A model generated the notes under the pieces. The model searched no databases. It had not been told where the DNA came from and saw nothing but the letters and a program-made list of their open reading frames with translations. From Eledone cirrhosa (Eukaryota): 64,000 bases of DNA. The position numbers and the translations under genes were made by a program. Within the stretch, counting starts at the first letter, position 1. Every line of letters starts with the position of its first letter. The stretch is taken from positions 34,720,001 through 34,784,000 of the forward strand of contig OZ024753.1 of NCBI GenBank assembly GCA_964016885.1, given 5' to 3'. Below are positions 18,301-45,300 of the stretch, piece by piece.

Positions 18301-21300
18301 GATGTAATCATAGTGTTGTTTTACACTTTTCAAGAATATTTTGTTAATGGGGTTTCATGTGGTACAGGACGTTAAGAGTTAATATTGAAAGTAATTAAGA
18401 ATTTCGAATGGTTTAGGAAAATAACTAAATATTTTCATTACTAAAATGTGTATGTGTATGTATGTGTATGTATGTGTGTGTATGTGTGTGTATGTGTGTG
18501 TGCATGTATATATGTGTTTGTATGCATGTAAATGTGTGTGTGCATGTGTATATGTGAGTGTGCATGTGTGTGTTATTATTATAAATGTAATATAATAGCC
18601 TACATGTTAAATGTACCAACATATTTTACAGAAATCTCCGTACTTACCATACTGTCTGGCATGCCATGTTGAATAATGGAACGTGTCTGTATCCTTGGCA
18701 CACTTATATAAACGACAGGATCGTTGTTATCAGACACCTAAAAATACAACAATCAACTAAAGTAATACACCACATATGTTTGTGTATATATCATCATCAT
18801 CATTTTACGTCCACTTTTCCCTGCTTGCAAGGGTGGGATGGGTCTTATTCAGCACAGCATCTCTCTTTTTGTCATGGACCTTCATCATCTACACCGTAAG
18901 CTTCAGCGATCTGAGGTCTGTTTTCACCACCTCCGCCCATGTTTTTCGTGGTCTTCCTCTACCACGTCTTCCTTCAACTGGCATTTCCTGGCACTTCTTC
19001 ACCCATCGGTCATCCTCCATGCACATCACATGTCCATACCACCTCAGTCTCCTCTCTCGCACACTACATTCTATCCCTCTCAGACACAGTTTCTCTCTCA
19101 ACACATCCATGCTGGGTCATTCACGCATATTGACATTGCACATCCAACGGAGCATGCTTGCCTCATTTCTCTCCAGCTGTCGCATTTCCTCTGCAGTTGC
19201 TGCCCATGTCTCACTACCATGCAGCATCGCGCTCCTCACACAGGCATCATATAACCGGCCTTTCGCATGCAGGGAGAAACCCTTCTTCGTCAGCAGGAGA
19301 AACAGGTCCCTAAACTTCTTCCAACCCGTCCTTATTCTAGATACTATGGCCTCTCTCTCTCTCTCTCTCTCTCTCTCTCTCTCTCTCTCTCTCTCTCTCT
19401 CTCTCTCTCTCTATATATATATATATATATATATATATATATATATATAACAATATTAAATAAATGGAAAACTATATTTATAAAACCATATTTATTTCAT
19501 TATATATATTTCGGGGATATCATATTAACAATATGCTATGCCTTCATCAGACAAAATACAATATAAACAGTTTTATAGATAAATATATTCGACATACCGT
19601 AATAAACATCAACTTCATTTGAAGAGGTTCACTCTAGCAGTGAAAATACAGAGAGAAAGAAAGAGAGAGAGAAAAGAGGGAAATAAGAAAGAAAGAAAGA
19701 CGAAACGAAGAAAAGGAAGAAAAAGAAGAAAAAGAAGAAATGCATGGGACAAAATAGAGAGATGGAAAAATAGATAAAGCGAAGAGCTTCATGTAAAGAG
19801 ACCGAAAGAGATATATATATATATAGAGAGAGAGGAAATAGAGATAGATACATATATAAATATAGATATAGAAAAATTAGGTAGTGGGAGGTCATTTTGA
19901 GTAAGTGTATCAATGATGCATTTATTTATTTATTTATTTATTTATTTATTTATTTAGCTCAAGTATTAATGTAAGGGAGATATAGAGAGATATAGAGAGA
20001 TATAGAGAGAGAAAAATTTAAAAATAGCCATATAATGAAATAAATATGGTTTTATAAATATAGTTTTCCATTTATTTAATATTGTAAATATACTCCAAGT
20101 ATTTGTCGAGTGCTTTTATATCAGTTATAAATATTTACTAGTTGTAACCCAACAATTTTAAATATAACTTTACATGTATATATATATATATATATGTATG
20201 TATGTATGTATGTAAATGGTAAACAAAAATAACAATACAATCGGTACAGTATATGGAAGGAATATATTAGGTTAACACTTGAAATAACAGGAAGAGGGTC
20301 TTAACGTTTTGGATGCTAGTCCTTCATCAGAAGAAAGAATGAGAAATAAGATAGATTGAAGGGACAAGGGGGTTGGAATTTGAAAAAAATGTCTTTAGAT
20401 AAAAATAACAGGTCCCTTCATGTTGACATCTCTTGGATATATATATATATATATATATATATATATATATATATATATATATATATGTTATAGTGTTAAG
20501 TATTTCTGTAGAAAACGTAAATGAAAGAAGAGTGCTCTATGTATAGTACAGAGATATTTCATCTGATGAACAAGCTGCACATTTCTGTAAGGATCGTCTA
20601 GTTTCCTGAAACTTTTGGTAATGGAATAATTATATTATATATATATATATATATATATATATATATAATGAAGGAAATGTGGTAAGGAACCAGATGGACC
20701 ATAACACACCAAAGTACTCAATACTTAGGGTAGTAGAGTGAGTAATAGGAACAAGTATGACCCCTTATATATATATATATATATATATAAAGAGGAAAAT
20801 GTAAAGTTGTAGATGTTAGAGAGTATTTTATAAATTGAGCCGTTATACATATTTCCATGACGATAGATATCGTGATTTCTTCAGACACCAAAATTGAGTA
20901 AAAGGTAACATTTCCAAGGCAACCATGGGTGGAAGGGAACGGACTAAAAAAAAATGTTTTTGCTTTGGTTGTCCGCTCCTTCAGATATATATATATATAT
21001 ACACACACACACATATATATATATATATATCTGTAGAAACCAACCCACAATCGGTTCTGTATGAGCATGACATGGTCACCTGACCTAGCATTGCTCTGTG
21101 AATGAGGACACCAGTCTTTGTATCAACTTTACCCCCTCAGCACTTTGTAAAAGTCCAAGACATTTGGCTACTTATACACAATGTTTGTTTACATGAGAAT
21201 ATCTTAAATGTACATGTGAGTGTGTGAAGATATGAGTGTGTGTATGCATGTATGTGTGTGTGTGCATGTATGTGCAGTGTGCTGTGATAATAAAATTGGA

Positions 21301-42300: not shown

Positions 42301-45300
42301 TCATTTCTCTCCAGCCTATGTATATCTAATATATATATATATATATATATATATATATATATATATATATATAACAAAGGAATTGTGGTAAGCAACCAAA
42401 TGGACCATAATGCACCAGAGTACTCAATACTTAGGGTAGTAGAGTGAGAAATAGGAAAAAGTATGGGGTCATACTTTTTCCTATATATATATATATATAT
42501 ATATATATATATGTGAATATAGACATAGAATATTCGAAAATATTCTGTATGTTTATAATAAACATTTTGAAGACCTAATCGCTATATAATAGAATACGTC
42601 ACGTATTACAATTAGATTCTCGATAAAAGCAAGGGAAGTAATCTACGCGTTTCATTCTTATTAGAAATCTTCAGGACTACATATCCAGTGCTTTTATCGA
42701 GAATGACACAGCTAGAGACTTATAGAATACTTAGCTGTGTACAGGAACTGGTTTGAAAGAGCGGTTGCCGGTCCGGCAGAAATTAGAAATTGGAATAAAT
42801 ATATATATATATAATATATATATATAATATACATATACTTAAATATGGCTGACTGAATACACACACGCCCCCCCCCCCCTTTTTATCTCATTTTTCCCCT
42901 GTCCTTCCTCTTCTCTTTATCTTTGTATTTTATCTTTTATTTCTCACTCTATCTTCTGATGAAGGACTAGTGTCTGAAATGTTAACACTCTTTTCCTGTT
43001 ATTTCAAGCATTAAACTAATACGTTTCTTCAATGTACTGTGACATTCGCTTTATTATTTCTGCTTACTTTTTACATACATACATACATATATATATATAT
43101 ATATATATATATATATACAGGGTGTCCCCAAAAAATGTATAGACACTTTGAGTACCTTATTAAAATACTGTTGAAGTGTGTATACATTTTTTTAGGACAC
43201 CCTGTATGTGTGTGTGTGTGTGTATATATATATATATCAGATGAAAGAAGGCATATTAATTTTTCCTTACCTTGATTGTCTCGAAGGCGGCTTGATTCTG
43301 TGTGAGGGTCAAAATTATAATTTGGCACTAACTTAACTCGCATGCGGGAGAAGTTTTCTTGGTTTGATAACTTCCAGTATTTGCATTCAGACGATCTGAA
43401 GAAGATATATAAAAATAGAAATAAAATAAACATAGAAAAACCTTCTTCTATGTCAGCCTAGCTCTGATCCCACTACAACTCATGTCCACTCATACATTGG
43501 CTACATCATAAGAAAATTTGGCCCTACATTTGTCACATCAAACATGTCCACTCTCTAGATGTAGAGTGTGGTCTTCCTTCCTGCTAAGTCTTTTGTCATG
43601 TAAGGTTTACTTTAACTATTAACATCTTGTAATAATTCAGCAGAAAATACCAGTGTGGACTGGACGCTTTTGTCGTGACCAGAAGGAAAAATGAAAATGT
43701 AATAATTACTCATCACACCACGCTCCACGTTTTGCAAGAAAGAACCGTTTGGTTGCTCTCCACTGTCTCATCACTGCGTTGTGTTGATTGCGGAGCTGTG
43801 TCGTTACATTCTGAAATCGGCGGTATTCTTGGGATATTTTAGATTTGGCAACATCCAAAATTTGACTCTGGAAAAGAAATTATTTGTGAGTGATGTAGTT
43901 TTCTTCAAGCATTGAGCTACATCAAATAGGACATTAAATTTTTAAAATAATGATATTGATAGTTCACAAATTCTGGTTCATGTATATCTGACATGATTAG
44001 CAGAAAGTCAAAAGTAGATTAACTTCTCATCCATAGAAAATGGAGGAAGTTTGTTTAAAAAAAAAAAGATAATAACCAGCTATATTCATCATCATCATCA
44101 TCATCATCATCATCGTTTAATGTCTATCTTCCATGCTAGCATGGGTTAGATGGAATTTTCCCACTTGAGGCAAGATTGATCGGGTGACCATGTCTCACTC
44201 GTATAGGACTGTATCTGGCTTGATTTCTATGGCTGGATGCCCTTCCTAACACCAACCTCATTTACAGTGTGGACTGAAATTCTGTCCTGAAATTTGAGGC
44301 GTTATGTCTGTGTAGGGAATCAATAATATAGTAGTTACCTGGAAAGAAAGTTTGCTCTTTCCCTGCCCCACATTTCGTTTGTGTTTGTTCGTCATCATCT
44401 TTTCGTGACATTCACTCCAGAACTCAATCATTGCTGATTGATGTTCTAAGAAGATTTTTTCAATGAACTGCTGTAACTGAGGGTTGATCTGGAAGAGAGA
44501 AATATAATAGGGATTTGTGAGATATGGGAGGACTCAACTGGAGGAAAGAAACGTGATAGAGATTTGTGGAAATATGGGAGGGTTGATCTGGAAGAGAGAA
44601 ATATATTTGTGAAATATGGGAGAGCTGAACTTGAAGAAAGAAATGTGGTAGATTTGTGAAATATGGGATGGCTGATCTGGAAGAGGGAAATATAATAGAG
44701 ATTTGTGAAATATGGGAGGGTTGAACTGGAAGAGAGAAATATAATAGAGTTTTGTGAGATATGGGAGGGCTCAACTTGAGGAAAGAAACGTGATAGAGAT
44801 TTGTGAGATATGGGAGGGTTGATCTGGAGGAGAGAAATATATTTGTGAAATATGGGAGAGCTGAACTTGAAGAAAGAAATGTGATAGATTTGTGAAATAT
44901 GGGAGGGTTGAACTGGAAGAGAGAAATATAACAGGGATTTGTGAGATTTGGGAGGTTTGATCTGGAAGAGAGAAATATAATAGGAATTTGTGAGATATGG
45001 GGGGCTCAACTGGAGGAAAGAAACGTGATGAGATTTGTGAAATATGGGAGGGTTGATCTGGAAGAGAGAAATATATTTGTGAAATATGGGAGAGCTGAAC
45101 TTGAAGAAAGAAATGTGATAGATTTGTGAAATATGGGATGGCTGATCTGGAAGAGAGAAATATAATAGAGATTTGTGAGATATGGGATAACAAATAATGA
45201 CAGCAACAGTAAAACTAATGGAAACATAGTTTCCTTGGTCTGATCTGAAAATCACCTCCTTATTCTTATTGACAGTTTAATAAAGAGAAAAAATATACAG

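What the first reader, a model, noticed from the sequence alone, without database searches (positions are those of the whole stretch)
19493..42988. Introns of the NBEAL-like gene hold hammerhead-ribozyme motifs from several unrelated families
Seen: at least nine type I hammerhead-like motifs (stem I - CUGANGA - stem II - GAAA - minimal stem III - NUH - stem I'). The better ones are 19493-19558(-), 20555-20628(+), 23602-23667(-), 23793-23858(+), 31449-31560(+) and 42616-42704(-). Weaker or decayed ones are 20839-20889(-), 21791-21837(-), 20300-20335(-) and 42952-42988(+). Each sits in a short islet between (TA)n runs, and the stems differ in sequence while keeping their pairing. Established: Penelope-like retroelements carry minimal type I hammerheads with short or palindromic stem III in their pLTRs. 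Inference: these islets are pLTR relics of several PLE families, and the minus-strand motifs are transcribed in sense within the pre-mRNA, where self-cleavage could affect splicing or transcript yield.
Basis: partly seen in the sequence, partly recalled or inferred. Interest (0 to 1): 0.75.

Follow-up and report, generated by a model that had tools for sequence, protein, structure and literature searches.

The report
Penelope retroelement hammerhead debris in introns
The hammerhead self-cutting RNA motifs in these introns are real leftovers of seven repeat families, three traced to known Penelope-type jumping elements; they are no denser here than elsewhere in this genome (about one per 17 kb) and likely do not cut the host gene's transcript.

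Summary
The motifs are real. All ten sit in introns of a minus-strand NBEAL-like gene. Four pass a strict type I hammerhead descriptor (shuffles: mean 0.07); the other six are copies of families whose other members often keep the fold. They form seven repeat families. Two (19493/23602/23793 and 31449) are pLTR ends of young Hydra-clade Penelope-like elements, found full length elsewhere with a hammerhead in each pLTR. One (42616) is a solo monomer of a 310-bp tandem retrozyme. 21791 has a family-wide U3-A8 core, a known variant. Three others have no linked ORF. The locus is ordinary: 60 sampled 10-kb blocks gave 36 hits (shuffles 1-3), about 170,000 genome-wide (92,000-272,000), against 4 in this 64-kb window. 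Sense and antisense copies are balanced. Of six sense copies, two are predicted to be masked by inverted arms, three are damaged, and one would need a dimer partner. An effect on splicing is therefore unlikely and untested. The element classes are published, and this scan noted similar cases before, including in this genome. What stands out is the genome-wide ribozyme load.

The parts
9230..63768 (-). NBEAL-like (neurobeachin-like) host gene, 29 coding exon matches in the window; the gene continues at least 30 kb beyond the window end
   Evidence: Pfam DUF4800, PH_BEACH, Beach, NBCH_WD40; tblastn exon map with P0001
19442..19943 (-). Family A, older copy: 3' end of Hydra-type PLE H2 (74-94% to the young element) with hammerhead 19493-19558; core intact, bulged A before G10.1-C11.1, palindromic stem III; sense to the gene
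20030..20179 (+). Inverted arm of the same insertion; in the pre-mRNA it is predicted to pair with 19450-19506, covering the cleavage site and stem I 3' strand
   Evidence: stem I pair probability 0.0
20195..20436 (-). Family B islet; hammerhead 20300-20335 with G12 changed to A; sense; predicted inactive
20487..20635 (+). Family C islet; hammerhead 20555-20628, core intact, proximal stem II damaged; antisense
20790..20984 (-). Family E islet; hammerhead 20839-20889, stem I cut to 3 bp by a change absent from most other copies; sense; same core-proximal layout as family A
21564..21892 (-). Family F islet; hammerhead 21791-21837 with family-wide U3-A8 core, stem II damaged in this copy; sense
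23286..23450 (.).
23467..23907 (.). Family A, young copy: fold-back of the H2 pLTR, 176-bp arms 98% complementary, hammerheads 23602-23667(-) and 23793-23858(+); predicted to form a long hairpin in RNA of either strand
28414..28467 (+). Family A fragment (3' half of the motif, fold-back), no CUGANGA box
30644..31616 (+). Family G: 5'-truncated Hydra-type PLE H1, GIY-YIG C-terminus (frame 30613-30966), 3' UTR and pLTR with hammerhead 31449-31560; antisense
42505..42800 (-). Family D: solo 296-bp piece of a 310-bp tandem retrozyme unit, 293/296 identical to array units; hammerhead 42638-42680, extended stem I 42616-42704, U10.1-U11.1 mismatch, palindromic stem III; sense
42826..43086 (+). Family B islet; hammerhead 42952-42988 with broken stem I; antisense

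Best explanation
These are hammerhead-bearing ends of repeat elements, shown to be Penelope-like retrotransposons for two families and a tandem retrozyme for a third and likely Penelope-derived for the rest, that landed in (TA)n tracts of the introns and are likely passengers with little or no cleavage of the host pre-mRNA. Shown: the hammerhead lies 130-190 nt from the 3' end of the element, so even heavily 5'-truncated insertions keep it; families A and G continue upstream into RT plus GIY-YIG ORFs elsewhere in the genome; family D forms head-to-tail arrays; the density is the genome average. Inferred from published work: the ribozymes serve the element, acting as dimers through the palindromic stem III in tandem transcripts to cut out unit-length RNA, and the element's endonuclease targets (TA)n. 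Predicted: in the NBEAL pre-mRNA the two intact family A sense copies are trapped in duplexes with their own inverted arms, the family D monomer has no cis partner, and the B, E and F copies are damaged.
For: Full-length H1 and H2 with a hammerhead in each pLTR flanking the ORF (L182, L186). Window pieces match them at 96-100%, the older A copy at 74-94%. 39 other loci are 100% identical to family A over 244 nt, and 39 are 95-97% identical to family G, each among 40 scored candidates. D arrays have 17 and 9+1 units, each with the motif. Stems covary across 16 A-type motifs: 96.7% of cells paired, 10 of 19 pairs with two-sided changes, all 7 stem II pairs; slid controls 32-62%. Background is 36 hits in 600 kb against 1-3 in 8 shuffles; P(>=4 in 60 kb) 0.42, P(>=4 in 24 kb) 0.12. 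Stem I pair probability is 0.0 for 19493 and 23602 in context. A solo minimal PLE hammerhead showed no cleavage in vitro and dimers only low cleavage (PMC4209133).
Against: Families B, C, E, F and H have no linked ORF, so their PLE origin is inferred from layout. The folding predictions are equilibrium calculations on chosen stretches and ignore kinetics, proteins and editing. The family D motif folds stem I well in context (0.78-1.0) and has an intact core, so some cleavage is possible. The same gene carries, 10-14 kb beyond the window, three perfect tandem sense hammerheads (L284). The covariation set was mostly chosen by the descriptor (15 of the 16 rows were descriptor-type hits or family A copies), which inflates pairing. 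In Xenopus, retrozymes are under-represented in introns (bioRxiv 10.64898/2026.07.22.740005), which hints at some cost.
Confidence: 0.85

Rival explanations
1. Some sense copies do cut the pre-mRNA at a meaningful rate: in cis for tandem arrays such as the 471-bp array upstream, or in trans when free retrozyme RNA pairs with a solo intronic copy (42638-) through the palindromic stem III. This would lower yield or compete with splicing, as reported for the CPEB3 ribozyme.
For: The D monomer is sense, 99% identical to young arrays, has no inverted arm and folds stem I. Three identical sense hammerheads with G10.1-C11.1 lie in another intron of this gene. Retrozyme RNAs are abundant in other animals (PMC7229834, passages). 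CPEB3 precedent (PMC10274809, abstract).
Against: No strand bias in this gene (10 sense, 8 antisense). The upstream array also has an inverted arm that would pair with two of its three sense motifs. D stem II is weak (0.15-0.18) and starts with a U-U mismatch. The gene's reading frame is intact across 29 exon matches despite the load. Expression of family D was not shown.
Confidence: 0.1
2. The motifs have been domesticated as regulators of this particular gene, like the amniote RECK and C10orf118 intronic hammerheads.
For: They are intronic and six of ten are sense.
Against: Each belongs to a multi-copy repeat family; copies are either very young (A, D, G) or more damaged than many of their siblings (B, E); local density is average.
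Confidence: 0.03
3. The weaker motifs are chance matches in AT-rich DNA.
For: Three of ten fail even a relaxed descriptor; no Rfam hammerhead model reaches threshold.
Against: Each weak motif is a copy of a repeat family in which many other copies pass: C 15 of 24, E 15 of 24, B 10 of 19, F 9 of 19. Shuffles give 0.07 strict hits in the region.
Confidence: 0.02

Closest known systems
Minimal type I hammerheads in pLTRs of metazoan Penelope-like elements (Cervera and de la Pena 2014, PMC4209133; parts 1-2 of 4 of the text read)
   Same: Short or palindromic stem III, bulged base before stem II in some copies, many divergent families per genome, mostly solo truncated copies, nearby pairs on opposite strands, U3-A8 core variant.
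   Different: Several young families here have A10.1-U11.1 or longer, interrupted stem II instead of G10.1-C11.1; the estimated load (about 170,000) is far above the counts given there (about 2,000-9,000 per genome), though descriptors differ.
Hydra clade of C-terminal EN+ PLEs, including Hydra-1_Obim of Octopus bimaculoides (Craig et al. 2021, PMC8557442; sections 11-12, passages and supplement hits read)
   Same: RT plus C-terminal GIY-YIG, RW(K/R), DKT, CxCX5C linker, CxxC and CxH around the catalytic end, (TA)n targets, hammerhead near the 3' end.
   Different: H1 and H2 units are 3.2 and 3.8 kb (Hydra 'generally <3 kb'); their hammerheads differ in sequence from the one listed for Hydra-1_Obim; both have clear pLTRs and many near-identical copies.
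Metazoan non-LTR retrozymes (Cervera and de la Pena 2020, PMC7229834, passages; Li, Clavereau and Pollet, bioRxiv 10.64898/2026.07.22.740005, parts 1-2 of 5)
   Same: Family D: 310-bp non-coding, 34% GC, head-to-tail arrays with a type I hammerhead in every unit, dispersed monomers.
   Different: Arrays here carry PLE-like inverted arms and sit in (TA)n; circular RNA and cleavage were not shown; the species was not among those named in the passages read.
Host-associated intronic ribozymes: RECK (HH9) and C10orf118 (HH10) hammerheads, CPEB3 HDV-like ribozyme (PMC3088659 passages; PMC10274809 abstract)
   Same: Self-cleaving motif in an intron, sense to the pre-mRNA.
   Different: Those are conserved at orthologous positions and were shown to cleave; these are multi-copy mobile debris on both strands, many damaged or masked.

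Membership tests
Type I hammerhead (PLE minimal form) | Core boxes C3UGANGA9, G12AAA, U16-H17 (U3-A8 allowed) | tested here: met
   9 of 10 named motifs; 20300- has G12A
Type I hammerhead (PLE minimal form) | Stems I and II around the core | tested here: inconclusive
   4 of 10 pass strict, 7 of 10 pass relaxed; other family copies pass relaxed in 29/29 A, 25/29 G, 15/24 C, 15/24 E, 10/19 B, 9/19 F
Type I hammerhead (PLE minimal form) | Short, palindromic stem III | tested here: met
   Families A, B, D, E, F; C and G have near-palindromic 3-bp stems
Type I hammerhead (PLE minimal form) | Compensatory base changes in stems | tested here: met
   10 of 19 pairs with two-sided changes in 16 A-type motifs; selection bias noted
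Type I hammerhead (PLE minimal form) | Self-cleavage after H17 | not testable with these tools
   No assay available
Rfam hammerhead clan CL00010 | Score at or above gathering threshold | tested here: not met
   No hit in the window; HH9 17 bits at 42624-42689; 38.9 bits, E 3.7e-7, below 52, for the upstream array
Hydra-clade PLE (families A and G) | Single RT ORF with C-terminal GIY-YIG | tested here: met
   Pfam GIY-YIG E 2.2e-4, 21.9 bits, just under the 22.6 cut-off; the copies read carry frameshifts
Hydra-clade PLE (families A and G) | RWK and DKT motifs, CxCX5C linker, CxxC and CxH, no CCHH | tested here: met
   H1 has RWK, DKT, CxCX5C, CxxC, CxH; H2 the same with RWR
Hydra-clade PLE (families A and G) | pLTRs with hammerhead; (TA)n targets | tested here: met
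   L182 and L186 have the motif 5' and 3' of the ORF, ending in (TA)n
Hydra-clade PLE (families A and G) | Generally shorter than 3 kb | tested here: not met
   3,182 and 3,836 nt from pLTR to pLTR; a descriptive trait, not a strict one
Hydra-clade PLE (families A and G) | Placement in the Hydra clade of an RT tree | not tested
   No tree built
PLE pLTR (families B, C, E, F, H) | Linked RT/GIY-YIG ORF upstream in sense | tested here: inconclusive
   None found within the flanks fetched; shared non-coding sequence extends about 1.2 kb (E) and 0.9 kb (B) upstream; the ORF could lie further
Non-LTR retrozyme (family D) | 150-450-bp tandem units, each with a type I hammerhead, low GC, non-coding | tested here: met
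   310 bp, 17 of 17 and 10 of 10 units with the motif, 34% GC; no ORF of 80 aa within the monomer other than a frame running through the TA run
Non-LTR retrozyme (family D) | Expressed as linear and circular monomer RNA | not testable with these tools
   No RNA run was served for this sequence
Domesticated intronic ribozyme (RECK, C10orf118, CPEB3 type) | Low-copy motif specific to the locus | tested here: not met
   All are members of dispersed repeat families
Domesticated intronic ribozyme (RECK, C10orf118, CPEB3 type) | Conserved at the orthologous position across species | tested here: inconclusive
   Contigs of four runs broke at the repeats and did not bridge the insertions

The most novel reading that the evidence does not exclude
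This genome carries about 170,000 intact hammerheads, one per 17 kb, so a typical long pre-mRNA crosses several. Solo intronic copies of dimer-dependent retrozymes such as 42638- are cleaved in trans when free retrozyme RNA of the same family pairs through the palindromic stem III, making retrozyme expression a transcriptome-wide brake on host genes; inverted arms laid down at insertion act as built-in silencers, and unmasked sense copies are purged from introns.
Probability: 0.08. Interest if true: 0.8.

Novelty: new member of a known kind. Interest (0 to 1): 0.3.

Why it matters
For this gene it matters little: the motifs are ordinary transposon debris. The genome-level estimate is the useful result. 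About 170,000 strict motifs in 3.0 Gb (about 58 per Mb) exceeds the counts read in the papers (126,247 canonical motifs in the 28-Gb axolotl genome, more than 6,000 in a coral, about 9,000 in Xenopus tropicalis), with the caveat that descriptors differ. With young Hydra-type PLEs and young retrozymes side by side, the genome allows a direct test of two open questions: whether PLE hammerheads cleave in vivo, and whether intronic sense copies cost the host anything.

Tried and rejected
Rfam scans: no hammerhead at gathering score; the 150 best of 372 E-value hits shown were microRNA models on (TA)n and tRNA-like SINE heads. Sequencing runs for the family D unit: no RNA holder listed, six holders not on record as RNA; no evidence either way on expression. 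Laying four of those runs on 41900-43450 did not bridge the insertions, so orthologous presence or absence could not be read. Linking B, C, E, F to a PLE ORF by flank extension and tblastn failed. An apparent link of family H to the H2 ORF at 2.5 kb came from two places only and is a neighbouring insertion; the endonuclease that abuts H in L186 belongs to a Neptune-type element with its own hammerhead. A first guess that the 30613 ORF was Naiad was rejected because the endonuclease is C-terminal. One search used a mis-indexed structure string and is discarded; one search is the correct one. The binomial test printed used a looser tally and is not used. Lunse et al. (PMC5785218) is not held and is known only through a passage of PMC6765202. 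Searches for prior octopus reports: 'hammerhead + Penelope-like + octopus' gave only Craig et al.; 'octopus + hammerhead ribozyme' gave five papers, four listed, none on a genome survey by title or abstract start; the O. vulgaris repeat annotation has no occurrence of 'ribozyme' in its main text. Supplementary tables of the hammerhead papers were not read and may list cephalopod counts.
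Full report
Setting. The window is G000:C13:34720001-34784000 of a 3.0-Gb animal genome. A neurobeachin-like gene runs on the minus strand: Pfam finds DUF4800, PH_BEACH, Beach and NBCH_WD40 pieces, and tblastn with P0001 maps 29 exon matches from 63768 to 9230, with more exons up to about 30 kb beyond the window. 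All ten named motifs fall between exons: two in 42107-43275, one in 27742-33921, three in 21460-23985 and four in 18827-21329. The organism is probably an octopod.

The observation. The motifs are at the stated places. A strict descriptor finds 4 of the 10 (23602-, 23793+, 31449+, 42638-), against 0.05-0.07 expected from local dinucleotide shuffles. A relaxed test passes 7 of 10. Rfam models do not reach threshold. Nine of ten sit in 149-428-bp islets between (TA)n runs. Pairwise comparison groups them into seven families: A (19493, 23602, 23793), B (20300, 42952), C (20555), D (42616), E (20839), F (21791) and G (31449).

Families G and A are PLE ends. G ends a 973-bp piece that begins inside a GIY-YIG endonuclease frame. 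Of 40 scored candidates, 39 other places are 95-97% identical, and their upstream DNA encodes a PLE reverse transcriptase. For A, 39 other places are 100% identical over 244 nt. Longer stretches show complete layouts: in L182 (H1) and L186 (H2) the hammerhead lies both 5' and 3' of the ORF, and L186 has an inverted copy as well. Both proteins carry the features listed for the Hydra clade in section 11 of PMC8557442: RW(K/R), DKT, CxCX5C, CxxC, CxH and a C-terminal endonuclease; they are 47% identical to each other over 356 residues. No tree was built. The hammerhead lies 130-190 nt from the 3' end, which explains why short truncated insertions keep it.

Family D is a retrozyme. The 42505-42800 piece is 293/296 identical to a 310-bp unit that forms arrays elsewhere, with 17 units at one place and 9 plus 1 inverted at another, each with the motif. 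This fits the non-LTR retrozymes of PMC7229834 (passages), which a 2026 preprint derives from PLE pLTRs (parts 1-2 of 5 read). Its U10.1-U11.1 mismatch is a known tolerated variant (PMC3088659, passage).

Families B, C, E and F are older dispersed repeats, 76-94% identical among the best copies. Many copies keep the fold: C 15 of 24, E 15 of 24, B 10 of 19, F 9 of 19. F has U3-A8 in place of C3-G8 across the family, a compensatory core already reported in Schistosoma PLEs (PMC4209133); only its stem II is damaged in the window copy. No ORF could be tied to these four, so their PLE origin rests on layout: (TA)n targets, variable 5' ends, inverted arms. Across 16 A-type motifs the stems covary (96.7% paired, 10 of 19 pairs with two-sided changes; slid controls 32-62%). 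Those rows were largely picked by the descriptor, so the pairing figure is inflated, but the stem II exchanges between subfamilies are real.

The locus is ordinary. I fetched 60 blocks of 10 kb at fixed round-number positions on 19 of the largest contigs (not drawn by a random generator, small contigs unsampled). They hold 36 strict hits, against 1-3 in each of 8 shuffles. That gives about 172,000 motifs genome-wide, bootstrap range 92,000-272,000. The window's 4 hits in 64 kb match this rate: the chance of 4 or more is 0.42 in 60 kb and 0.12 in 24 kb. The first-look candidate counts (27 to 3,930 per family) are lower bounds and may be capped.

Effect on the pre-mRNA. Counting the ten named motifs and the strict hits in the upstream introns (L284, L285), 10 are sense and 8 antisense; inverted pairs are not independent. 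Of the six named sense copies, 23602 lies in a 176-bp inverted repeat whose complementary arm is transcribed first, and 19493 has a 150-bp inverted arm covering its cleavage site; stem I pair probability is 0.0 for both. 20300 has lost G12, 20839 has a 3-bp stem I and 21791 a broken stem II. 42638 is intact and folds stem I, but its stem III is a 4-nt palindrome that would need a dimer, and it is alone. Published work found no cleavage by a solo minimal PLE hammerhead and low cleavage by dimers (PMC4209133). Inverted arms are not universal: 8 of 29 young A loci and 2-3 of 29 G loci show one within 1.5 kb. Against this reading, the same gene holds a 471-bp retrozyme array with three identical sense hammerheads 10-14 kb beyond the window; its own inverted arm would mask two of them. 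No RNA data were available.

Verdict. The classes are published, a Hydra element with a hammerhead is listed for Octopus bimaculoides (supplement hits), and this scan has notes of the same kind on this and other genomes. These are new members of known kinds. The size of the genome-wide load was not found in the searches run, but unread supplements may contain it.

Noticed in passing
L284:700-4200 (G000:C13:34794700-34798100): Second retrozyme-like family, 466-471-bp units, as an array of identical units in another intron of the same gene: three sense and two antisense canonical hammerheads around an inverted junction. Many arrays elsewhere (207 matches from 40 of 579 candidates). Best candidate for real pre-mRNA cleavage in this gene.
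   Followed up: partly
window 23286-23450; L199-L223: Family H copies selected by similarity to the window copy are fold-backs whose inversion point falls in or just before the CUGAUGA box, with the same junction in 17 of 24 copies shown. It may propagate as a fold-back unit, or the core may favour template switching.
   Followed up: partly
L225, L230, L246, L251, L253, L117: A Neptune-type PLE with its own hammerhead downstream of the endonuclease accounts for 5 of the 36 background hits.
   Followed up: partly
L303, L308, L316, L317: Family E shares about 1.2-1.3 kb of non-coding sequence upstream of the hammerhead, starting right after the pLTR tail; possibly a non-autonomous PLE derivative.
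   Followed up: partly
window 31755-33844, 22113-23241, 28617-29536, 35021-36519, 18790-19350: Several truncated copies of RTE-like LINEs (RT followed by a PHD-like finger), also abutting (TA)n runs; 95% identical pairs in opposite orientation could form long duplexes in the pre-mRNA.
   Followed up: no
window 16512-16569, 27905-28119, 30441-30655, 48190-48400: tRNA-derived SINE heads; two reach the Rfam tRNA threshold.
   Followed up: no
window 48840-59790: An 11-kb compound microsatellite-like array with strong G and T skew fills one intron.
   Followed up: no
window 17006-17893 and 44446-45190: A 19-bp minisatellite and a 40-49-bp minisatellite in introns.
   Followed up: no
window 20668-20765 and 42375-42470: Two copies of another short repeat end abutting (TA)n, very abundant in the contigs laid; not assigned.
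   Followed up: no
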